Positions 15,380 to 22,880 of a DNA stretch of 64,000 nt are shown piece after piece. Position numbers and translations under genes: made by a program. The notes beneath the pieces were generated by a model. That model was not told the origin of the DNA. It was given only the letters and a program-made list of their open reading frames with translations, and made no database searches. The stretch lies in the IMG/VR virus record IMGVR_UViG_3300032233_002382, positions 96,001 to 160,000 of that record. One strand, written 5' to 3'. This stretch comes from a virus (taxonomy: Duplodnaviria > Caudoviricetes). How positions within the stretch are numbered: the stretch's first letter is position 1; every line of letters starts with the position of its first letter.

Positions 15380-16459
15380 GTGAAATTCGGTTCAATTACT
15401 TTATCAGGTAACAGCTCTTCCATCATCGCTGACGCCATTTCGTCAGTAGTTGATGTTGTCGATGTAGTGATTCTTATTGATACTGGTATTTCTGATGATA
15501 CTATACAGAAAGCAAGCCTAGCCGCGAAGGGCAAACTCGTTATTAAGAAATTCGCTTGGATAAATGACTTCTCGGCGGCACGCAATTATGCGCTCGAAGC
15601 GGCCAAAGAGGAGGGATGTGACTGGGCGATAATGTTAGACACTGATGAGCGGATCATTTGGAACGACGAGAATCTTACAGCCATATTAAACTCAAACACA
15701 GAAGATAAACGGAAATTTGACGTTGTGATGGTTAATTCAGTAGACGACTCATATAGCAAAGAGCGAATTTTTCGCATACCGGTTCGAGAAAAGTATTTTG
15801 GTCCGACTCATGAAACGTTCCCAGTGTATAAAGTCGGCGGTTTAATCGCCAAACGTTTAAAGTTCGTCGAGCTACCGAAATCAGACGAACAGTATCGAAA
15901 GAAATTCACTCGCGACCTCCAAATTCTTGAGAAGCACGTGCTCGAGAATCCTAAGGATCCGAGATGGTTTTATTATTTAGGAGATACTAACAAGAACTTA
16001 GGGAGATTCAAGGAAGCGATTCATGCATATGATGCTTGTTACAGAATTAACGGCTGGGATGAGGAATCTGCCTGGGCCTGCTACAGAATAGCGGAGTGTT
16101 TTGTAGCTCTAAAAGATCTTCAGTCGGCTTTAGATGCCTGTGCCAGAGGGATAGGACGACATCCAGGTATAGGCGAGTTATACTGGCTTGCTGGTTGGCT
16201 ATGTTTTCAGATGAACCAGTTCTCTAAAGCGGAGTATTGGTCATATCAGGCGATCAGCGCAGGGTTTCAAGAAGGCTTTGCTTCGAAAGTGTTCCGCATC
16301 GGATTCAGACATCCGATTGGACTGTATGATGGACCGTACGACGTTTTGCGCTGGTCACTACTAAAGCAGAATAAGCCAGTGTCTGAAGAACTTCAATCGA
16401 AATTGGTAAAGGCTATGGAGGCTAGAACAAATGGAATCAAAGCAGTCACCGGAATCTAA
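15380..16459 (+). CDS. GT2 glycosyltransferase with TPR repeats
   Basis: IDTGISDDT, WINDFSAARNYAL, LDTDE (DxD) and HE motifs, then TPRs (DPRWFYYLGDT..A..AY, WACYRIAEC). Confidence 0.85.
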   Translation: MKFGSITLSGNSSSIIADAISSVVDVVDVVILIDTGISDDTIQKASLAAKGKLVIKKFAWINDFSAARNYALEAAKEEGCDWAIMLDTDERIIWNDENLTAILNSNTEDKRKFDVVMVNSVDDSYSKERIFRIPVREKYFGPTHETFPVYKVGGLIAKRLKFVELPKSDEQYRKKFTRDLQILEKHVLENPKDPRWFYYLGDTNKNLGRFKEAIHAYDACYRINGWDEESAWACYRIAECFVALKDLQSALDACARGIGRHPGIGELYWLAGWLCFQMNQFSKAEYWSYQAISAGFQEGFASKVFRIGFRHPIGLYDGPYDVLRWSLLKQNKPVSEELQSKLVKAMEARTNGIKAVTGI

Positions 16460-16817
16460 TCAGCCGGAGTCTGGTGACCAGACCGTTGATACGATGTTGA
16501 AATTCCTTAAATCCCCTCGAAACACCTTTTTAGTCGGGGCTGTAGTCGGCGTGCTTTTTACTAATGCTTACAATATCCCTCACAATGCGGAAATCGAGGT
16601 ATGTAAAGCCACTGTTAAAGAACGCAATGAATTTATTACGAAGATGATAGAAGAGAATCGAATCGAAGCGGCTAGTCGGGAGAAATCTCTTGCTGCTCAG
16701 CGTGATTCATTCATCGAAATGGTAAGAGAAATGACTCAGAGAATGTCTCGCCAAACTATAACTCCGGTCATTGAATATAGATACCGGACTAAGCCTGCCG
16801 AAAGCACGAAAGAATAA
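16431..16817 (+). CDS. Membrane-anchored coiled-coil protein (possible lysis accessory)
   Basis: One N-terminal hydrophobic helix followed by a charged helical segment; lies between lysin genes. Confidence 0.55.
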   Translation: MESKQSPESNQPESGDQTVDTMLKFLKSPRNTFLVGAVVGVLFTNAYNIPHNAEIEVCKATVKERNEFITKMIEENRIEAASREKSLAAQRDSFIEMVREMTQRMSRQTITPVIEYRYRTKPAESTKE

Positions 16818-16864
16818 ACGAGAGCTTCTCGTTCAATAGAATTTTTCTTCCTAGTGATATGTGA

Positions 16865-16888
16865 TCATGCCTGATTTCCCAGGCATGA
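16865..16888. terminator. Intergenic hairpin
   Basis: TCATGCCTG-ATTTCC-CAGGCATGA 9-bp inverted repeat. Confidence 0.45.
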
Positions 16889-16913
16889 AATTCCGTATAT
16901 ATACGGAGGTCAC

Positions 16914-17570
16914 ATGTCACTCGTGCTCGCTTCACCCCTACCTAAAGGCGCTGAATACCTCGCCGATATTGCGGCGAAAGTCGCCCCTCAGGGCGGTGTT
17001 TCTCCGTATCTACTTCTCGGCATTCTTTATGCTGAATCAAATTTCGGCATGGCGCTTAAGCCGACCGGTCCATCTGGATCTGGCGACTTCATAGCCCGCC
17101 CCACTTCTCCAGATCGCGACAAGAGAATGGCTTCTAATCCGCTCCCTGGCGTGGTTAAGAAGACTCTGGCTGAGGGTATTAAAGCCCGTAAAATTGCTGG
17201 CCCCTGTGAAGCCTGGGTTCCCACCACCAACGGCTGGGGATGCGGCTTATTCCAAATCGATTATGAGGCCCACTACGAATTTTGCAAGTCTGGACAGTGG
17301 ACTGACCCCGAGAAGGCTTGTGCGTACGCGGTTGGAATTCTCAAGTCAGCTAGATCTTCACTCGTCAAATTAGTGCCTGGTATATCGGGCGTAAACCTGG
17401 ACCGCGCCATGATCGCCAGCTATAACGCTGGTGCTGGTCGTGTTTCGAAATTCCTGAAGGAGGGAAAGTCTCTCGATGACTGCACTTTCCACCCAGGGTA
17501 CGTCGACAAGATCTGCAATAAAGCCGACGCTCTTGCCGGTCATTCAGGTTCCTGGATGACTGTGGGGTAA
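16914..17570 (+). CDS. Lysozyme-like lytic transglycosylase (SLT/goose-type)
   Basis: LGILYAESNFG (catalytic Glu), GLFQID, ASYNAGAGRV and YVDKI motifs; GGAGGT SD. Confidence 0.8.
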   Translation: MSLVLASPLPKGAEYLADIAAKVAPQGGVSPYLLLGILYAESNFGMALKPTGPSGSGDFIARPTSPDRDKRMASNPLPGVVKKTLAEGIKARKIAGPCEAWVPTTNGWGCGLFQIDYEAHYEFCKSGQWTDPEKACAYAVGILKSARSSLVKLVPGISGVNLDRAMIASYNAGAGRVSKFLKEGKSLDDCTFHPGYVDKICNKADALAGHSGSWMTVG

Positions 17571-17603
17571 GAAAGACCTAATCAACGCCAAGAGGAGCGA
17601 AAA

Positions 17604-19964
17604 ATGCGTAAACATATTTTTAGTATAACTATTTCTTTTCTCCTCTTGGCTCCGGTGGTTAGTCCTGCACTAGACTCCGATTCGGATGGTCTAGATGACG
17701 CCGACGAAGTTTTAGCAGGACTACCACCGCTGGTTAGGGATTCTGATGCAGATGGTATGTGGGACGTATCAGATGATGATATGGATGGAGACGGGATACC
17801 CAATCTATCAGAGTGCAGCCTTGGCGCTACTACAGTCGTTTCTTTGGTAAATGGAAGCTTTGAATTACCAACATTTTCCGGCACAAACTTATTTTTCCCT
17901 ACTGAAGCTAATATGCCGGGATGGAAGTCTACAGCTCCGGACCACACCTTCGAGCTGTGGCCTAACGGAAATTTCAGTGGGTTTAACGCCTTAGACGGGC
18001 GAGTGTTTGTCGAACTGAATGCGAATTACGTTTCAACTCTATACCAAGACGTGCCCACCACACCGGGAAACAGATTTCTTTATTCGTTCGCCCATTCAGG
18101 ACGCCAGGGTACGGACACTATGGACTTCTTGCTGGGGACCCCAGGAGGCTCACTAGTCCAGCAGAGACGCTGCATAACTCCGGCCCGCACCTGGACTAGG
18201 TACAGCGGCGTTGTTCAGATTCCTGCAGGCCAAACCACCACCAGATTTGCATTTGCAAGCATCTCTTCCTCTTGTGGATCTTCATGTGGAAATTTCTTGG
18301 ATGCCATTAATTTTCGTCCCGCTTGTTTTTCTGATTTCGATCAAGACGGAATCCCAGACGCTCTAGACACTGACTCCGACAACGATGGTCTATCTGACCG
18401 CGTTGAGGGGATGTCGTTTTTCCGAATTGCCGACCGAGACGATGATGGGTGGCTAGACGGAAGCGATAACTGCCCATCTATATCAAACCCTAACCAAGCT
18501 GATTTAGATAGAGACGGTATTGGCGACCTATGTGACAATGATGACGACGGCGACGAGATCGCTGACAATATCGACAACTGTCCGCTTTACAGCAACTTTG
18601 ACCAATTAAACACCGACCATGATTTCTTCGGTGATGTTTGTGATGGTGATGATGATGGAGATTCCATAAGCGACGTAGTTGATAATTGTCCTCTGCATTA
18701 TAACGTAGCGCAAGAAGATCTAGACGGAGATTCAATAGGCGACATATGTGACCTAGACGATGATGGTGATGGGGCTAACGATGATGCGGACAATTGTCCT
18801 TGCCTGGCTAATCCTAGCCAGGCGAATCTAGATAACGATTCTGAAGGAGATGCTTGTGATAGCGATGACGACGGAGACATGGTACCGGATGATGTTGACA
18901 ACTGCTCAAGAATCGCTAATGCTGATCAGTCCGACATGGACCATGATTTAGTCGGTGACATGTGCGATAGTGATCTTGATGGAGATGGGCTTGGAAATGA
19001 TCTAGATAACTGTCCGAACATATCCAACGGCGATCAACGAAACATTGACGATGATGCATTTGGAGACTCATGCGACTTAGATAAAGATAATGACAGCATC
19101 TCAAATTCAGAAGACAACTGTGATGTCATACACAACCCACTACAGTCTGATATGGATCTAGACGGTATCGGCGATGAGTGTGACTCCGACGTTGACGGAG
19201 ATGAAATATCGAATCTAACGGACAACTGCCCCTTGCTTCGGAACGGAACTCAGTTTGACCAAGATCTCGATGGAATAGGAGACATCTGCGATCCGGATGT
19301 GGACGGAGATTCAGTTGTCGATGGTATCGACAACTGCCCTGGGGTGACAAACGCTAGTCAGAATGATACAGACTCAGACGGAATTGGAGATGCTTGCGAT
19401 GTAGATGCTGACGGCGACGGGATAGCGGACAATCATGATAACTGCACAGGGCTATCGAACGCTGACCAGACTGATACCGACACTGACGGGATTGGTGATA
19501 TGTGCGACCCCGACGCAGATGGCGACGGCGTTCCGAATATCGAGGAAGAGAAGATCGGGACAAATCCGCTTGTAGTCGATACTGATGGTGACGGGTATTC
19601 AGATGCCGAAGAAGCAAAGCAAGGTAGTAGTCCCACGGACCCTGGCCAAGTCCCACCGGGAATCTATTCAGGTGGGTGTTCTTCCTCTGGTCCCGTATCA
19701 ACTGGGTCGACTACGTTCGGGTCTAATGCTCCGAACGATCGATCATCCAGTGCTTTTTATGCCTTAGCTTTTATCCCACTCTTTATGCGTCGCAAGCGGA
19801 ACTTTTTCCTTGCTTTGTTGCTTGTTTCTTCGGTCGCTTCGGCAGACCAAGGTGTCCAAGTCTCCGTTCCGCGTGAATTAGAACTATCTTTGACTTCACC
19901 GGAGATAGGATCGGAATTCGTTACTGTGCCTTCCAGTCAATTTAAGGACGGCACCCATTTTTGA
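17604..19964 (+). CDS. Secreted TSP3 (thrombospondin type 3) repeat protein with jelly-roll domain and MYXO-CTERM-like tail; frame runs on into the start of an OM-barrel domain
   Basis: Signal peptide, VNGSFE..FLDAINF carbohydrate-binding-like domain and ten 36-aa DNC..N.Q.D.D.DG.GD.CD repeats. These are followed by GGC + Ser linker + hydrophobic + RRKR, then a second signal-like segment. Confidence 0.85.
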   Translation: MRKHIFSITISFLLLAPVVSPALDSDSDGLDDADEVLAGLPPLVRDSDADGMWDVSDDDMDGDGIPNLSECSLGATTVVSLVNGSFELPTFSGTNLFFPTEANMPGWKSTAPDHTFELWPNGNFSGFNALDGRVFVELNANYVSTLYQDVPTTPGNRFLYSFAHSGRQGTDTMDFLLGTPGGSLVQQRRCITPARTWTRYSGVVQIPAGQTTTRFAFASISSSCGSSCGNFLDAINFRPACFSDFDQDGIPDALDTDSDNDGLSDRVEGMSFFRIADRDDDGWLDGSDNCPSISNPNQADLDRDGIGDLCDNDDDGDEIADNIDNCPLYSNFDQLNTDHDFFGDVCDGDDDGDSISDVVDNCPLHYNVAQEDLDGDSIGDICDLDDDGDGANDDADNCPCLANPSQANLDNDSEGDACDSDDDGDMVPDDVDNCSRIANADQSDMDHDLVGDMCDSDLDGDGLGNDLDNCPNISNGDQRNIDDDAFGDSCDLDKDNDSISNSEDNCDVIHNPLQSDMDLDGIGDECDSDVDGDEISNLTDNCPLLRNGTQFDQDLDGIGDICDPDVDGDSVVDGIDNCPGVTNASQNDTDSDGIGDACDVDADGDGIADNHDNCTGLSNADQTDTDTDGIGDMCDPDADGDGVPNIEEEKIGTNPLVVDTDGDGYSDAEEAKQGSSPTDPGQVPPGIYSGGCSSSGPVSTGSTTFGSNAPNDRSSSAFYALAFIPLFMRRKRNFFLALLLVSSVASADQGVQVSVPRELELSLTSPEIGSEFVTVPSSQFKDGTHF

Positions 19965-21094
19965 TTGCCCCGCTGTTCTCGGTCGATCTATTAAGATGGA
20001 CTGGGCAGCGGGGCGAATCGCTAAATTTGATCCCAAATCTACTAAGTTCGAGCGCTGCTTTCGCTTACGCAGGGAAGTACTGGTTTGTGGGGTTGACCTC
20101 TGAACTAATTACGAGATTAGGCTCGGAGCGCATCGGTGGATTTCAGATCTTAAAACCAGAGGCGTTCGCAGGTGCTCAATTCCGAATCAAATTCCTATCT
20201 GCAAGTGTTCGGGCTGTAACGAATATTCCGATTTCCTATAATAGCTATTTCAACTCGAGCCAGTCTTTAAACGCGATTCTCGCTCTCGGTTTTAAAATCG
20301 ATAAGTTCGATGCTTCATTATCTTCTTCTTACGGCACTAGTGGATTACGCCTAAAGTCAGGCGTTAAGTATAGCTTGTTCGATTGGTTGGGGTTTTCGAT
20401 CGAATCAGATTTAAGCCACCAGATCGGAACGTATTCAGTGTTTCGACTCGGTAATAGATTTTCTGCTATCGCCGGAGTTGCATTCGCTGTAAAGAGCGGA
20501 CCCGGAATTCCTCGATTCGACTCCGTTTTAGGGGTTCGACTTGTACCACCCGATCCTGTGGATAGCCCGGCCGTGGTCGTTGAACGGCCACACCCAGTTG
20601 TTGTGTTGCCATTAGACCCAAAATCGGATCCAGAATCGATCGATTCGACTGCGATAGTCACACCCGTAATCCAGCCTGACGTAACCAGCGATCCCGACCT
20701 AGGCGCAAGCCCGTTGCCGGTTTTAAGTCCAGATCCTTCACCCGAGATCGTTTCGGAAGCGCCGTCTGAAATAAAACCGGTAGTTTCTAACGATATCAAG
20801 CTTCCTACAGTCGAACAGAAGAAGGTCGTATTCGATAAAACCGAGTTAAAGCAATTTGAGCTCATCGAAAAATGGCAGTACTTTCTGAAAGGTCACCCCG
20901 AGATCGAGTTAGTGAGCATTAATTTCGTCGGTGGAAAGATGAGTATGAATGAGGGCTACAACCGAATTAAAAAAGTCAAGGAATTTTTGATTTCTTCCGG
21001 TGTCGAGAAAGAAAGGATACGCCTCGGAAAAATGATTAAATTTTCGGGTGATCCGTACATAAGAATCGACATCATAAGAATCCGGGGTGAATAA
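19961..21094 (+). CDS. OM beta-barrel + Pro-rich linker + degenerate OmpA-like domain (-1 frame continuation of 17604..19964)
   Basis: Alternating amphipathic beta-strands, PDPV..P linker and KVKEFLISSGVEKERI OmpA-like end. The TTG start has no SD and no signal peptide of its own. Confidence 0.7.
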   Translation: MIAPLFSVDLLRWTGQRGESLNLIPNLLSSSAAFAYAGKYWFVGLTSELITRLGSERIGGFQILKPEAFAGAQFRIKFLSASVRAVTNIPISYNSYFNSSQSLNAILALGFKIDKFDASLSSSYGTSGLRLKSGVKYSLFDWLGFSIESDLSHQIGTYSVFRLGNRFSAIAGVAFAVKSGPGIPRFDSVLGVRLVPPDPVDSPAVVVERPHPVVVLPLDPKSDPESIDSTAIVTPVIQPDVTSDPDLGASPLPVLSPDPSPEIVSEAPSEIKPVVSNDIKLPTVEQKKVVFDKTELKQFELIEKWQYFLKGHPEIELVSINFVGGKMSMNEGYNRIKKVKEFLISSGVEKERIRLGKMIKFSGDPYIRIDIIRIRGE

Positions 21095-21831
21095 TGGAGG
21101 ATAATCGGCCCGTATGCGACATTACGCTAAATAAGGATGGATCGATACCATTCGAATCTATCGCTAACTTAGATCCTAACTGTCGAGTGCCTAAGGCTGT
21201 TAAGAATGTAATCATACCTATGGAAGGAGAGCGAGATTCTGTGAAGAATAAAAAACATACGGAGATAAAGACCACCGAAGAAGTTACCTTAAACCAGGAG
21301 GAAGTTCCAATGGCCCAGACCGAATCAGTAAAATCAGTAGACACCCAGGTTTCTGAAGCCCCCGCAACCGTAGCTACGGTAGGTGTCGACCAAGCTGTAA
21401 GTCAGGTAAAATCTCTTATACCGGCAGGGTCAGACGCCAGTCCGGCTTTGATGATTGGCGGGGCAGCGATTCTAGCAGTCGTGGGTGCTGCGATAAAATT
21501 TGGCCCGTCGATGCTAAAAGCTCGGGCTGAAAAGGCCGAAAGAGAACACGAAGCCAAGATGAAACAGCTCGAGATCGAAGAGAAGAAGAGCGAAAAACAG
21601 GAAGACCAGCACCAACAGTGCAATGCATCAAGGCTCGCTCTTGAAGCTAAGGTGGGTGCTCTCGCTTCTCAAGTCGAATCACTATCTGGCAAAGTGGAAA
21701 AATCAGGGTCCTCTTCGTTAAGTTTAGGAGATATGGACTCTGAAGAGCTAGTGGAAAAACTCGAAAAGCATGATAAAGCGATCAAAGCCCTCGATAAGAA
21801 TGTGAAGGCGTTAAAGAAAATATTAGGGTAG
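21094..21831 (+). CDS. Membrane-anchored coiled-coil protein
   Basis: One TM helix (ALMIGGAAILAVVGAAIKF) followed by a coiled coil; possible second start at ATG 21310 with GGAGG. Confidence 0.6.
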   Translation: MEDNRPVCDITLNKDGSIPFESIANLDPNCRVPKAVKNVIIPMEGERDSVKNKKHTEIKTTEEVTLNQEEVPMAQTESVKSVDTQVSEAPATVATVGVDQAVSQVKSLIPAGSDASPALMIGGAAILAVVGAAIKFGPSMLKARAEKAEREHEAKMKQLEIEEKKSEKQEDQHQQCNASRLALEAKVGALASQVESLSGKVEKSGSSSLSLGDMDSEELVEKLEKHDKAIKALDKNVKALKKILG

Positions 21832-21860
21832 TCAGACGGTTAATGGTGAGGAGGAATAAG

Positions 21861-22880
21861 ATGAAAACTAACAAACTGCTCCTCCTCACCATTGGTCTAA
21901 TGCTGTTGATAATCGGAATTCAACATAAACAGCTCCAAGATGCGAATAGTAAACTGACCAAAGTAATCGATCAAAAAGACATTGGCGGTGGGATAGTTCG
22001 GTCTTCCACGTCTGTAGGCACTAGCGCCGACATAGATTCGATGGCCTTGGATGCAGGCGTCGATATTTCTCGAATTCGTTCAGATGCCACCGACAACGGA
22101 GCAGTCGTTACTGGTATAAACGTTACGACCGCCAATACGTCTGGTTCCAACTCGACCAACGTTCGAAGCAGCCGCTCTAAGCCTCGAACGGATGTCGCCC
22201 AGCCGAATTTCGGATCGTGTGTTTGTCCTCCAAATCAAGGCTCAAGCTCGGATATAAAGATCCCACCACCTACGGCTCCCGCTTGTGCACCCGGAAGGTA
22301 CGAAAATTCGGAGCAGGTGTTGGATATTAACGAGCCTGTAACGGACCAAAATATCCCATTCGGGGAAGTCACTTTTAAGGCTTGGAAAGAGGATCCGTGG
22401 AGTCTATCAGTGTTCCCCCGAAGCTATAAATCATCCGTGGTATTTGCAGAGGATGATGATGGAAGAAAAATCGCATATTCGCACATGGAGATCATACAAG
22501 GAGATAATAAAGTCACCTTGCCGATTTCAACGGCCGAAATGGTCATGACCCCGAAACCAGCTAAGTTTAGGTGGGCGAGTCGACTTCATCTAGGGGTATC
22601 GGGAGGTATCCACACCACCCTTGGAATTACTGGTAATGCTGGTCTAGCATTTTACTTTGCTAATTACGGTTCAGACAAATTCCTGCCTGATTTCACTTTC
22701 ATCGGCGCTGGACTCGGATACGACTTCTTAAACTCATCTCCGGTCATATCATTAAACCCCGCATCCTATAGGATTGGTCAGCACTTACCCTTCGTACAGG
22801 ATTTATACTTGTCGCCACAATTGACGCTAGATCTGTCATTGAAGGTCGGTTTGCTAGTTTCGATATCGACTGCTTTATGA
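21861..22880 (+). CDS. Hypothetical exported/membrane protein
   Basis: N-terminal signal/anchor and beta-rich C-terminus; GAGGAGG SD before ATG 21861. Confidence 0.6.
   Translation: MKTNKLLLLTIGLMLLIIGIQHKQLQDANSKLTKVIDQKDIGGGIVRSSTSVGTSADIDSMALDAGVDISRIRSDATDNGAVVTGINVTTANTSGSNSTNVRSSRSKPRTDVAQPNFGSCVCPPNQGSSSDIKIPPPTAPACAPGRYENSEQVLDINEPVTDQNIPFGEVTFKAWKEDPWSLSVFPRSYKSSVVFAEDDDGRKIAYSHMEIIQGDNKVTLPISTAEMVMTPKPAKFRWASRLHLGVSGGIHTTLGITGNAGLAFYFANYGSDKFLPDFTFIGAGLGYDFLNSSPVISLNPASYRIGQHLPFVQDLYLSPQLTLDLSLKVGLLVSISTAL

What the first reader, a model, noticed from the sequence alone, without database searches (positions are those of the whole stretch)
17604..21094. Phage-encoded myxobacterial-style cell-surface adhesin (jelly-roll + TSP3 + MYXO-CTERM-like + OM barrel/OmpA)
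Seen: an export signal, a putative ligand-binding jelly-roll, ten Ca-binding TSP3 repeats and a GGC-linker-hydrophobic-RRKR tail, then a barrel and an OmpA-like domain lacking the usual GHTD and NRRV peptidoglycan-binding residues. Established: MYXO-CTERM tails are typical of Myxococcota, and the TraA (MYXO-CTERM receptor) / TraB (barrel-TSP3-OmpA) pair drives kin recognition and outer-membrane exchange. Inference: the infected cell displays a viral adhesin that could alter cell-cell contact, help spread through swarms or block superinfection. It also points to the host phylum.
Basis: partly seen in the sequence, partly recalled or inferred. Interest (0 to 1): 0.72.

Follow-up and report, generated by a model that had tools for sequence, protein, structure and literature searches.

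The report
Frameshifted phage adhesin-anchor polyprotein gene
A giant uncultured freshwater phage carries one gene, read in two frames through a conserved ribosome slip, that encodes a sugar-binding, calcium-stiffened surface stalk and an outer-membrane anchor; the layout matches adhesin-anchor pairs of myxobacteria, so the phage probably re-dresses the surface of the cell it infects.

Summary
These are an export signal, a CBM-type jelly-roll, ten 36-residue TSP3 repeats, a GGC/hydrophobic/RRKR tag, a 12-strand outer-membrane barrel, and an OmpA-C-like domain that lacks the GHTD loop.

Two corrections change the picture:
- **The tag is internal, not a tail.** It runs straight into a second, signal-peptide-like helix with a conserved AxA site.
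- **The two ORFs are one gene.** Related phage contigs encode the whole thing as one 1137-1166-residue ORF. In the window and in a 75%-identical relative it is split by a -1 shift at CAU-UUU-UGA/UAA. A strong hairpin follows, and only the split members have it. The downstream frame is under purifying selection from the first codon. Independent metagenome assemblies show no indel there.

Most likely this is a precursor cut in the inner membrane into a lipid-tagged lectin stalk and a barrel/OmpA-like partner, with frameshifting setting their ratio.

The fused layout (internal MYXO-CTERM, then barrel and OmpA) was noted for Myxococcus MXAN_5598 (PMC11980579). This scan has also found it repeatedly in cellular Myxococcota. 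The phage copy with recoding is a new variant. The MYXO-CTERM, TraA and TraB models do not score on it. The host phylum is unresolved.

The parts
17604..19964 (+). ORF1 (786 aa), zero frame of the gene: signal peptide, lectin-like head, TSP3 stalk, internal sorting tag, internal signal-peptide-like helix, first 39 residues of the barrel protein. Stop TGA at 19962-19964.
   Evidence: It is 61% identical over residues 11-694 to the single-ORF homologue P0008.
17604..17669 (+). N-terminal Sec-type signal peptide (residues 1-22, predicted cut SPA|LD).
   Evidence: Read from the sequence. Homologues keep an equivalent AxA|(V/L)D site. No signal-peptide predictor was available.
17811..18326 (+). Jelly-roll (CBM4/16/22-like beta-sandwich) head, residues ~70-241.
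   Evidence: AF2 pLDDT 82, pTM 0.78. Foldseek PDB E 1.5e-8 to CBM4-2. The same domain heads many surface proteins (308 hits).
18330..19643 (+). Calcium-binding stalk: ten 36-residue thrombospondin type 3 repeats, each with a Cys pair, plus bacterial TSP3 motifs (residues ~243-680).
   Evidence: Pfam TSP_3 E 6.7e-89 and TSP3_bac 1.8e-8. Invariant D/N/C columns across homologues.
19668..19799 (+). Internal Cys-type sorting tag: SGGC (Cys692 at 19677-19679), Ser/Gly-rich spacer, 12-residue hydrophobic helix (19752-19787), RRKR (19788-19799).
   Evidence: Sequence. Invariant G690 G691 C692 S693 R729 R732. No TIGR03901 hit here; 12.6 bits in P0008.
19800..19844 (+). Internal signal-peptide-like helix (residues 733-747), with a predicted signal peptidase I site ASA|DQ after A747.
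   Evidence: An AxA site followed by D or E is kept in all six homologues. A747 is invariant. Cleavage itself is inferred.
19958..19964 (+). Shift site U-UUU-UGA: tRNA-Phe on UUU (19959-19961) can re-pair one base back, and TTG 19961-19963 is then read as Leu.
   Evidence: Same T5 run and frame change in L002, which has TAA instead of TGA. No indel in independent assemblies X2 and X4. The fusion aligns without a gap to the single-ORF homologues.
19962..20020 (+). Stimulatory hairpin. The core 9-bp G+C stem is 19967-19975 / 20005-20013, five bases after the UUU codon.
   Evidence: MFE -38.4 kcal/mol, z -5.25, z -7.1. Present in L002. Absent at the same place in homologues that do not shift there. 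8 of 8 codons in the arms are identical against a 41% background, with one compensatory pair.
19961..20545 (+). Rest of the outer-membrane beta-barrel (ORF2 residues 1-195, about 12 strands), in the -1 frame.
   Evidence: AF2 model. VIA Z 15.0 KdgM, 14.1 FapF, 13.9 COG4313 channel. Foldseek PcoB E 1.1e-4.
20546..20833 (+). Proline-rich linker predicted with low confidence (ORF2 residues ~196-291).
   Evidence: pLDDT 41-55 and no secondary structure. Highest non-synonymous divergence, pN 0.53.
20834..21094 (+). Degenerate OmpA-C-like domain (ORF2 residues 292-377) and stop codon.
   Evidence: pLDDT 85-94. Z 8.6, rmsd 2.7, 80 residues to 9uu2_A. GHTD loop deleted. Most conserved part of ORF2, pN 0.14. 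No Pfam OmpA hit.
16914..17570 (+). Upstream SLT-type lytic transglycosylase, same strand, 33 bases before ORF1.
   Evidence: Pfam SLT 24.7 bits, cut-off 21.3. Same position in L002 (88% identity) and on the P0126 contig.
21094..22880 (+). Two downstream genes kept with the module: a 245-aa protein with a mid-protein membrane helix followed by a coiled coil with one Cys, and a 345-aa protein with an N-terminal membrane helix and a beta-rich C-terminus.
   Evidence: 67% and 48% identical in L002, in the same order. No informative family hit. Whether they belong functionally is not shown.

Best explanation
ORF1 and ORF2 are one phage gene for a two-part envelope device, made as a precursor.

**Shown**
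- The gene has a signal peptide, a CBM-type lectin head, a stalk of ten TSP3 repeats, an internal Cys/hydrophobic/Arg tag, a second signal-peptide-like helix, a 12-strand outer-membrane barrel, a Pro-rich linker and a degenerate OmpA-C-like domain.
- Related phage contigs encode all of this in one frame.
- In the window the barrel part lies in the -1 frame behind a conserved U-UUU-UGA site and hairpin. It is under purifying selection.

**Inferred mechanism**
1. The precursor enters the Sec pathway.
2. The tag helix stops transfer, and RRKR stays in the cytoplasm.
3. The next helix restarts export and is cut by signal peptidase I at ASA|DQ.
4. This yields a stalked adhesin held by the tag and a separate barrel/OmpA-like protein that goes to the outer membrane.
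5. The adhesin's tag is then processed at Cys692 by a host sorting enzyme of the myxosortase (CPBP) type, and the adhesin is moved to the cell surface.
6. Ribosomes that stop at UGA make the adhesin only. Ribosomes that slip -1 make both parts. Frameshifting therefore sets an adhesin-to-anchor ratio above 1:1.
7. On the infected cell, the sugar-binding head would alter adhesion or capture glycans. What it binds is unknown.
For: **One gene**
- P0007 (1166 aa) and P0008 (1137 aa) are continuous ORFs matching ORF1 (61% identity) and ORF2 (24%, E 5e-11). They sit on contigs that look like related phages.
- The ORF1 tail and ORF2 align end to end with them.

**Real, selected shift**
- The T5 run and frame change are the same in L002, at 75% DNA identity and with a different stop codon.
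- L002 has no ATG, GTG or TTG for 34 codons after the site, yet that stretch is conserved.
- Synonymous sites are saturated (pS 0.79-0.89). Non-synonymous divergence is 0.23 in the first 45 ORF2 codons and 0.14 in the C-domain.
- Contigs from other studies, about 94% identical, cross the site with no gaps.

**Signal**
- The hairpin folds at -38.4 kcal/mol, z -5 to -7, and is also present in L002.
- It is absent at the same position in homologues that do not shift there (z +0.9, -0.5, +0.3).
- Codons in the stem arms are identical in 8 of 8 cases against a 41% background, and there is one compensatory change from G.U to U-A.

**Folds**
-.

**Polyprotein logic**
- The tag columns and the AxA site are conserved in six homologues.
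- ORF2 has no signal peptide of its own.
- A Polyangiaceae genome has the same two parts as neighbouring genes.
- A Myxococcota MAG has them fused, with an internal MYXO-CTERM of 22.6 bits and a TraB-like barrel at E 1.7e-8. That genome is unpublished (G002).
- PMC11980579 proposes processing of the internal tag of MXAN_5598.
Against: - No expression, protein or cleavage data exist, and the frameshift efficiency is unknown.
- U-UUU-UGA is a single-tRNA slip site next to a stop, not a canonical X-XXY-YYZ heptamer.
- The hairpin evidence rests on two sequences with DNA in hand.
- The window's tag does not score with TIGR03901, and its Cys-to-helix spacer (24 residues) is longer than in the relatives (6-12).
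- The phage has no CPBP protease and the host is unknown, so the sorting step is conjecture.
- Barrel similarity to the myxobacterial examples is not significant.
- Two other relatives are broken at a different place, in the middle of the barrel. That could mean the anchor part is decaying in some lineages.
- The OmpA-like domain lacks the usual peptidoglycan-binding loop.
Confidence: 0.6

Rival explanations
1. Two separate genes, as first read: an adhesin ending in a sorting tail, and an independently translated barrel/OmpA-like partner starting at TTG 19961, perhaps coupled to the overlapping TGA.
For: TTG at 19961 overlaps the stop (TTGA). An AAGGA lies 12 bases upstream. traA and traB are separate overlapping genes in Myxococcus.
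Against: - L002 has TTA ATA at that place and no canonical start for 34 conserved codons.
- ORF2 has no signal peptide.
- ORF1 runs 54 residues past RRKR.
- The signal peptide and the start of the mature barrel protein of the single-ORF homologues are encoded in ORF1.
Confidence: 0.05
2. The shift is an inherited disabling mutation. Only the 786-residue adhesin is made, and the barrel/OmpA part is a decaying remnant.
For: Other relatives are also broken, at another place. In L014 the C-terminal domain looks degenerate. T5 is not a classic slippery heptamer.
Against: - ORF2 stays open for 377 and 363 codons in two lineages whose synonymous sites are saturated.
- pN is 0.14 in the C-domain and 0.23 right after the site.
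- A conserved hairpin with conserved wobble bases sits exactly at the break, and only in the members split there.
Confidence: 0.1
3. The precursor is not cut. It works as one chain, either as an autotransporter-like protein whose barrel exports the passenger, or as a tether spanning the inner and outer membranes as part of the neighbouring lysis-type genes (SLT enzyme, membrane coiled-coil protein).
For: - The barrel also resembles 12-strand autotransporter and intimin barrels (Z 10-12).
- About 65 poorly ordered residues lie between the second helix and the first confident strand.
- The module sits between an SLT gene and a spanin-like coiled-coil gene in three relatives.
Against: - A basic, two-helix membrane hairpin between passenger and barrel does not fit type V secretion.
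- An OmpA-like domain follows the barrel.
- The AxA|D/E site is kept in all six homologues.
- The myxobacterial counterpart exists as two separate genes.
Confidence: 0.12
4. It is a virion part (a fibre or decoration protein with a sugar-binding head), not a protein placed in the host envelope.
For: CBM-like domains occur in phage tailspikes (5w6h). A mostly viral cluster has a similar 200-residue domain.
Against: - It has a Sec signal peptide, a membrane hairpin, a transmembrane beta-barrel and an OmpA-like domain.
- The disulfide-type TSP3 repeats need an oxidising compartment.
- There is no PHROG structural family hit.
Confidence: 0.08

Closest known systems
MXAN_5598 of Myxococcus xanthus, and like fusions in Myxococcota: adhesin, internal MYXO-CTERM, outer-membrane barrel, OmpA domain (Guo, Haft & Wall 2025, mBio, PMC11980579)
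   Same: Same order of parts: large secreted adhesin, Cys/helix/Arg tag in mid-protein, then barrel and OmpA-type domain. The authors likewise propose that the N-terminal part is processed and anchored at the surface. A Myxococcota MAG example found here (L050, unpublished genome) adds the internal signal-peptide-like helix.
   Different: - The window's gene is in a phage.
- Its tag does not reach the TIGR03901 cut-off.
- The barrel part is reached only through a -1 frameshift.
- The linker is Pro-rich rather than TSP3.
- The OmpA-like domain has lost the GHTD loop.
- No significant sequence similarity of the barrels was found. MXAN_5598 itself was not compared, because I held no sequence of it.
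[quoted passage not shown]
   Same: A head domain on a stalk with a Cys sorting tag (TraA), plus a barrel and OmpA-like partner (TraB). The genes are adjacent and overlapping. TSP3 repeats are present in the system.
   Different: - No TraA or TraB model hit.
- The head is a CBM-type jelly-roll, not the TraA variable domain.
- The stalk is TSP3, not Cys-rich repeats.
- The TSP3 repeats are in the adhesin, not between barrel and OmpA.
- There is no evidence of homotypic recognition or membrane exchange.
Programmed -1 ribosomal frameshifting in phage and bacterial genes (lambda G/GT tail chaperones, dnaX, IS3-family transposases; own knowledge)
   Same: A U-rich slip site, a stable stem-loop a few bases downstream, two products sharing an N-terminus, and conservation of both frames.
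   Different: The site is a single-codon slip against a stop codon (U-UUU-UGA/UAA) rather than a tandem heptamer. It joins two secreted proteins of an envelope device rather than structural or replication proteins. It has not been demonstrated experimentally.
Polyproteins cut at an internal signal peptide, such as the Bradyrhizobium cytochrome b/c1 precursor FbcH (own knowledge, not checked here)
   Same: One precursor with an internal export signal, cut by signal peptidase into two membrane or periplasmic proteins.
   Different: Here the internal signal follows a sorting tag and shares its Arg cluster. The second product is an outer-membrane barrel. Cleavage is only predicted.
Phage-encoded OmpA-like / outer-membrane proteins (for example Cellulophaga phage phi17:2 OmpA-domain protein, and metagenomic Myoviridae 'outer membrane protein' entries in BFVD)
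   Same: Phage genes predicted to have a barrel and/or OmpA-like fold.
   Different: The matches are weak (TM below 0.2). None shows the adhesin, the tag or a frameshift. No isolated phage in INPHARED has a relative of ORF2.

Membership tests
MYXO-CTERM sorting domain (TIGR03901) | Short Gly-rich signature with an invariant Cys | tested here: met
   SGGC at 689-692; G690 G691 C692 S693 are invariant in six homologues.
MYXO-CTERM sorting domain (TIGR03901) | Hydrophobic helix followed by an Arg-rich cluster | tested here: met
   Residues 717-728 are hydrophobic, then RRKR 729-732. The helix length equals that of the TraA tag quoted in PMC11980579.
MYXO-CTERM sorting domain (TIGR03901) | Lies at the C-terminus of the protein | tested here: not met
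   54 more residues follow in ORF1, and 377 more follow through the frameshift. Rare internal cases are known.
MYXO-CTERM sorting domain (TIGR03901) | Scores at or above the curated cut-off (20 bits) | tested here: not met
   No hit at E<=10 for ORF1, residues 660-786 or residues 680-720. Homologue P0008 scores 12.6. The positive controls L040 (24.5) and L050 (22.6) pass.
MYXO-CTERM sorting domain (TIGR03901) | Host is a member of Myxococcota with myxosortase MrtX | not testable with these tools
   Host unknown. There is no CPBP (PF02517) gene in the 308-kb phage record.
TraB, outer membrane exchange protein (NF033763) | Matches the family model | tested here: not met
   No hit for ORF2 at E<=10. 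L040 ORF2 scores 152.6 bits, and the L050 barrel part hits at E 1.7e-8.
TraB, outer membrane exchange protein (NF033763) | Signal peptide, outer-membrane barrel, TSP3 linker, OmpA domain | tested here: inconclusive
   The barrel and OmpA-like fold are present. The signal peptide is supplied by ORF1. The linker is Pro-rich with no TSP3.
TraA, outer membrane exchange receptor | TraA-type variable head, Cys-rich repeat stalk, family model match | tested here: not met
   No TraA-named model is among the NCBIfam hits at E<=10. The head is CBM-like and the stalk is TSP3.
MtsC, cell-cell cohesion MYXO-CTERM protein (NF047638, equivalog) | Score above 350 bits over the whole model, with a C-terminal MYXO-CTERM | tested here: not met
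   The score is 493 bits, but it comes from six repeat stretches. The best stretch covers only model positions 89-265 of 428. Unrelated TSP3-rich proteins also pass (L040 364, L050 853). There is no terminal tag.
OmpA-C-like domain (PF00691) | Pfam model match | tested here: not met
   No Pfam hit for ORF2 or for seven members of its C-domain family. A profile built without a true OmpA sequence finds Pal only at E 0.48.
OmpA-C-like domain (PF00691) | OmpA-C-like alpha/beta fold | tested here: met
   Residues 290-373 match 9uu2_A at Z 8.6, rmsd 2.7, 80 aligned. P0131, a true OmpA-domain protein, hits ORF2 at E 7e-4 in the whole library.
OmpA-C-like domain (PF00691) | Peptidoglycan-binding residues (GHTD loop Asp, SxxRA Arg, NRRVE) | tested here: not met
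   The GHTD loop is deleted and NRRVE is replaced by IRIDI. Only the helix Arg (R335) is mostly kept.
Adhesin / internal sorting tag / barrel / OmpA fusions (MXAN_5598 type) | Secreted adhesin, mid-protein Cys tag followed by a signal-peptide-like helix, then barrel and OmpA-type domain | tested here: met
   The description of MXAN_5598 is.
Adhesin / internal sorting tag / barrel / OmpA fusions (MXAN_5598 type) | Sequence homology to MXAN_5598 or its NCBIfam model | not tested
   No sequence of MXAN_5598 was in hand. No AgmC- or SgmI-named model appeared among the NCBIfam hits.
Programmed -1 ribosomal frameshift site | Slippery sequence that allows re-pairing in the -1 frame | tested here: inconclusive
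   UUU can re-pair on UUU one base back (U5 run). It is not a tandem X-XXY-YYZ heptamer, and a stop codon occupies the A site.
Programmed -1 ribosomal frameshift site | Stable downstream structure at 5-9 bases, conserved, and specific to the shifting members | tested here: met
Programmed -1 ribosomal frameshift site | Both frames coding and under selection; not an assembly error | tested here: met
Programmed -1 ribosomal frameshift site | Shifted product observed | not testable with these tools
   No RNA or protein data are available.
Type Va autotransporter | Passenger joined to a C-terminal 12-strand barrel by a pore-spanning linker, with the barrel at the very C-terminus | tested here: not met
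   A basic two-helix membrane hairpin separates passenger and barrel. A linker and an OmpA-like domain follow the barrel.

The most novel reading that the evidence does not exclude
A clade of giant freshwater phages carries its own adhesin-plus-anchor device of the TraA/TraB kind as a core gene. The phage gets the host's Cys-tag sorting pathway (myxosortase type) to install it on the infected cell. In some lineages recoding (a -1 slip here, a possible prfB-like +1 slip elsewhere) tunes how much anchor is made per adhesin. This would be the first phage-encoded substrate of such a sorting system and the first frameshift that sets the stoichiometry of a cell-surface device. It would also point to hosts with such a sorting pathway.
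Probability: 0.3. Interest if true: 0.8.

Novelty: new variant of a known kind. Interest (0 to 1): 0.62.

Why it matters
If the reading holds, it bears on four questions.

- **Phage biology.** Very large phages would not only kill cells but also equip them with a stalked, sugar-binding surface protein and its anchor. That could change aggregation, adsorption of further phages, or spread.
- **Protein sorting.** A "C-terminal" sorting tag would work in mid-protein, back to back with an internal signal peptide. This is a compact way to make two envelope proteins from one chain. It is so far only proposed for Myxococcus MXAN_5598.
- **Recoding.** A new, simple slip site (U-UUU-stop plus hairpin) would join two secreted proteins. 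It is easy to test in a reporter.
- **Annotation.** The NCBIfam MtsC equivalog model would name this phage protein, and other TSP3-rich proteins, wrongly.

Tried and rejected
- **Searches for more relatives of ORF2.** The IMG/VR scan with the protein found none, as did the scan with the alignment. An 18-base pattern of the shift site gave seven loci, all unrelated chance matches. The metagenome scan returned only the L002 contig again. The 1.84-billion-representative search gave only L002's protein, five small C-domain-only or fragment proteins, and one true OmpA protein at E 7e-4. A search with the C-part of P0008 found only P0007.
- **Isolated phages.** There is no relative of ORF2. Only the head domain of ORF1 hits four unannotated Listeria phage records.
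- **OmpA by sequence alone.** My first profile contained a true OmpA sequence and therefore hit OmpA structures. I discarded that result. Without that sequence there was no significant hit. The OmpA-like call now rests on fold.
- **Barrel homology to myxobacterial examples.** Not significant by hhalign (probability 29% for the C-domain only; 5% for the barrel).
- **Complex prediction.** Run on the base of the ORF1 stalk (590-695) with the ORF2 barrel (1-200). The result was no verdict, score 0.01. It is not evidence either way.
- **RNA data.** No RNA holder is listed among public runs. There is no Rfam match at the hairpin.
- **Host.** There is no CPBP gene and no second tagged protein in the phage record. 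A 42% G+C MAG labelled "Myxococcales" that carries a head-domain relative has no MYXO-CTERM hits. No tRNA lies in the window.
- **Missing DNA.** The contigs of P0006 and P0126 could not be fetched, so their frame breaks could not be examined.
- **Phase variation at the T5 run.** Rejected, because all four assemblies laid on the stretch show no indel and the run is short.
- **Hairpin as terminator.** Rejected, because no U tract follows it.

Full report
**Setting.** The window is bases 96001-160000 of a 307,777-base IMG/VR virus record (CheckV completeness 72%, 46% G+C). Neighbouring genes include collagen-like tail fibres, glycosyltransferases and an HNH endonuclease. Public runs that hold the stretch are freshwater and riverine metagenomes. 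Two + strand ORFs fill the finding. ORF1 is 17604-19964 (786 aa). ORF2 is 19961-21094 (377 aa), starts at TTG and lies in the -1 frame relative to ORF1.

**Checking the observation: ORF1.**
- It starts with a typical Sec signal (basic start, hydrophobic core, SPA|LD).
- Residues 60-265 fold with confidence (pLDDT 82, pTM 0.78) into a beta-sandwich. Its best solved matches are carbohydrate-binding modules CBM4-2, CBM16, CBM22 and CBM61 (Foldseek E 1.5e-8, TM 0.58/0.70).
- The same domain heads many surface proteins of very different bacteria, including Streptomyces DUF11/DUF7507 fimbrial proteins, T9SS proteins, a Polyangium TSP3 protein and PEP-CTERM proteins. It is a portable lectin-type head.
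- Pfam finds TSP_3 at E 6.7e-89 in 12 stretches, plus TSP3_bac.
- The tag is S689-G-G-C692, a Ser/Gly-rich spacer, a 12-residue hydrophobic stretch (717-728) and RRKR (729-732).

**Checking the observation: ORF2.**
- The model has about 12 strands over residues 1-195. It matches KdgM (Z 15.0), FapF (14.1), a COG4313 channel (13.9) and NanC (13.1).
- Residues 200-291 are a Pro-rich stretch predicted with low confidence (pLDDT 41-55).
- Residues 292-377 form a confident alpha/beta domain (pLDDT 85-94) that matches an OmpA-C-like domain (9uu2_A, Z 8.6, rmsd 2.7, 80 residues).
- Aligned to a true OmpA domain, the GHTD loop is deleted and NRRVE is replaced.
- No Pfam or NCBIfam model hits ORF2. The OmpA-like call rests on fold and on one weak sequence link (P0131, E 7e-4).
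- An earlier profile of mine that contained that true OmpA sequence was biased. I do not use it.

**First correction: the tag is not a tail.** After RRKR the ORF continues with NFFLALLLVSSVASA|DQ, a textbook signal-peptide core and AxA site, and then with 39 more residues. All six homologues have the same arrangement: SGGC, a hydrophobic helix, an Arg cluster, a second hydrophobic helix, then AxA followed by D or E. The Met before RRKR is not conserved, so this is not a nested gene start.

**Second correction: ORF1 and ORF2 are one gene.**
- The head-domain search found P0007 (1166 aa) and P0008 (1137 aa). Each is a single ORF that matches ORF1 at about 61% and ORF2 at 24%, E 5e-11.
- Their contigs carry GIY-YIG, DUF5856 and adenylosuccinate-synthetase-like genes. 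This fits the PurZ-bearing phage lineage described in earlier notes on this genome.
- The ORF1 tail and ORF2 align end to end with these proteins. The junction F786|L1 needs no gap.

**The frame break is real and selected.**
- A relative at 75% DNA identity (L002, a 51.9-kb contig of an NCBI assembly) has the same five-T run and the same -1 change of frame, but with TAA TAG instead of TGA.
- In L002 the -1 frame has no ATG, GTG or TTG for 34 codons after the site, yet these codons encode nearly the same peptide as in the window.
- Between the two phages, synonymous sites are saturated (pS 0.79-0.89). Non-synonymous divergence is 0.19 for ORF1, 0.23 for the first 45 codons of ORF2 and 0.14 for the C-domain. 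The downstream frame is therefore translated from the shift site on.
- Contigs from other studies (a 2015 freshwater run and a 2025 riverine run), about 94% identical, cross the site without any gap. The T5 run is thus neither an assembly error nor visibly phase-variable.

**A frameshift signal sits at the break.**
- Five bases after the UUU codon starts a 9-bp G+C stem (19967-19975 with 20005-20013), extended by an inner stem. The MFE is -38.4 kcal/mol with z -5.25 in the window, and -27.2 with z -3.3 in L002.
- In my own re-fold of 66 bases, z is -7.1 and -3.9.
- The equivalent stretch of three homologues that do not shift there has no structure (z +0.9, -0.5, +0.3).
- All 8 codons in the stem arms are identical between window and L002. 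Only 41% of conserved-residue codons are identical elsewhere in ORF2, which gives about 0.41^8 = 8e-4.
- One inner pair changed on both sides through two synonymous changes, TCG to TCT and ACT to ACA, turning G.U into U-A.
- The simplest mechanism is that tRNA-Phe on UUU, facing a stop codon, slips one base back onto UUU, and TTG/TTA is read next. This is inference. The site is not a canonical tandem heptamer, and only two sequences with DNA support the structure.

**How it most likely works.** Steps are marked as shown or inferred.
- Shown: the order of parts, the conservation of the tag columns and the AxA site, the absence of a signal peptide on ORF2, and the folds.
- Inferred: the precursor enters the Sec pathway. 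The tag helix stops transfer with RRKR in the cytoplasm. The next helix restarts export and is cut by signal peptidase I.
- Inferred: this releases a barrel/OmpA-like protein for the outer membrane. It leaves the lectin stalk held by a tag, which a host enzyme processes at the Cys.
- Ribosomes that terminate at UGA still make the complete adhesin, tag and hairpin. Only those that slip make the anchor. The ratio of adhesin to anchor would therefore exceed 1:1, whereas the single-ORF relatives make them 1:1.
- What the head binds, and what the device does for the phage, is open. Candidates are adhesion, capture of glycans (perhaps those of the phage's own glycosylated fibres next door) and exclusion of other phages.

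**Comparison with what is known.**
- The layout is that of myxobacterial adhesin-anchor pairs. In a Polyangiaceae genome (L040), a 1218-residue TSP3 protein with a true MYXO-CTERM (TIGR03901, 24.5 bits) is followed 31 bases later by a 618-residue barrel-TSP3-OmpA protein. That protein hits the TraB model at 152.6 bits, below its cut-off of 700.
- In a Myxococcota MAG (L050), one 1686-residue ORF has an internal MYXO-CTERM above cut-off (22.6 bits), a signal-peptide-like helix ending AHA|EV, and a barrel hitting TraB model positions 6-209 (E 1.7e-8). The genome has 33 MYXO-CTERM matches. It is marked unpublished (G002). The statements about L050 rest on it and need the depositors' permission before publication.
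- Earlier notes of this scan led me to Guo, Haft & Wall 2025. The paper states that MXAN_5598 has an internal MYXO-CTERM between a large adhesin region and barrel plus OmpA domains, compares this with TraA plus TraB, and proposes processing (tag definition and pathway; TraB architecture).
- The scan's notes report several more cellular examples. One has a JDVT-CTERM-type tag outside Myxococcota, and one has a frameshift-like signal. I did not test those.

**Membership.**
- The window's tag has the three parts of a MYXO-CTERM, but it is internal and does not score (no hit at E<=10).
- Relatives' tags score 12.6 bits (TIGR03901, cut-off 20), 12.6 (TIGR03382, cut-off 15.85) and 22.0 (Synerg-CTERM, cut-off 22.5).
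- No TraA or TraB model hits.
- The MtsC equivalog model is exceeded (493 against 350 bits), but only through repeated TSP3 matches. The best stretch covers model positions 89-265 of 428, and the model is exceeded by unrelated TSP3 proteins as well. I do not file the protein as MtsC.
- I file the gene as working like the MXAN_5598-type fusion, not as a member of any named family.

**Host.**
- The gene is an old, conserved gene of this phage group (57-73% identity in the ORF1 part) on contigs of 35%, 46% and 55% G+C.
- The phage has no CPBP-type protease and no other tagged protein.
- The language-model look-alikes of ORF2 are barrel-OmpA proteins of Bdellovibrionota, Acidobacteriota and Myxococcota alike.
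- My own estimate is about 0.3 for Myxococcota.

**Other frame breaks.**
- P0009 (L014/L015) stops in mid-barrel at CUU-CUU-UAG, preceded by GGAGG. The rest of the barrel follows in the +1 frame, with a hairpin downstream.
- The P0126 contig has the same kind of split, 886 aa then 214 aa in the +1 frame. P0006 also ends in mid-barrel.
- Of seven lineages, five are broken between adhesin and anchor.
- This fits recurrent recoding. It equally fits decay of the anchor in some lineages, and L014's C-domain does look degenerate. I could not fetch the DNA needed to decide.

**Verdict.** The main new result is that this is a single, conserved, frameshifted precursor gene in a giant phage. It is a new variant of a fusion noted once in Myxococcus and seen repeatedly by this scan in cellular Myxococcota.

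Noticed in passing
L014:4690-4790 (also L015): The homologue P0009 ends in mid-barrel at CUU-CUU-UAG, six bases after GGAGG. The barrel continues in the +1 frame. This resembles the prfB +1 shift site. A 14-bp hairpin follows about 9 bases later (-23.9 kcal/mol, z -2.2).
   Followed up: partly
contig of P0126 (JGI 3300059473, no DNA available): Same module order as in the window: SLT 222 aa, TSP3 protein 886 aa, then a 214-aa ORF in the +1 frame overlapping by 23 bases that carries the barrel end, linker and C-domain. This is a second lineage with the mid-barrel split.
   Followed up: partly
window 16431-17570 and 21094-22880: The adhesin gene sits in a same-strand block kept in L002 and on the P0126 contig. 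The block has a small membrane protein, an SLT-type transglycosylase, then (after the adhesin) a 245-aa protein with a membrane helix plus a Cys-containing coiled coil (i-spanin-like), and a 345-aa membrane or beta-rich protein. It may be a lysis or envelope cassette.
   Followed up: partly
L050:1331-6388 (unpublished genome G002): A Myxococcota MAG has one 1686-aa ORF with TSP3 repeats, an internal MYXO-CTERM above cut-off, an internal signal-peptide-like helix and a TraB-like barrel, but no OmpA domain after it.
   Followed up: partly
L040:3527-9071: A Polyangiaceae MAG has the unfused form: a TSP3 adhesin with a true MYXO-CTERM, then 31 bases later a barrel-TSP3-OmpA gene of the TraB type.
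   Followed up: yes
NCBIfam NF047638 (MtsC) on window 17604-19964, L040, L050: This equivalog model is exceeded by any TSP3-rich protein (493, 364 and 853 bits against a cut-off of 350). Automatic annotation would therefore mislabel such proteins as MtsC.
   Followed up: yes
P0127-P0130 (metagenomic proteins, 104-183 aa): Small stand-alone proteins consist of little more than the degenerate OmpA-like C-domain (motif HPEIELV...GV...RI). At least two (P0128, P0130) have an N-terminal hydrophobic segment. This is a domain family without a Pfam model.
   Followed up: no
window 17582-17947 (- strand): A 121-aa antisense ORF over the start of ORF1 appears conserved in relatives. This is explained by conservation of the ORF1 coding strand and is probably not a gene.
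   Followed up: no
L011:9419-10420, L012:8168-9166: The single-ORF homologues lie a few kb from adenylosuccinate-synthetase-like genes. This fits the PurZ-type lineage noted for this genome by earlier reports.
   Followed up: no
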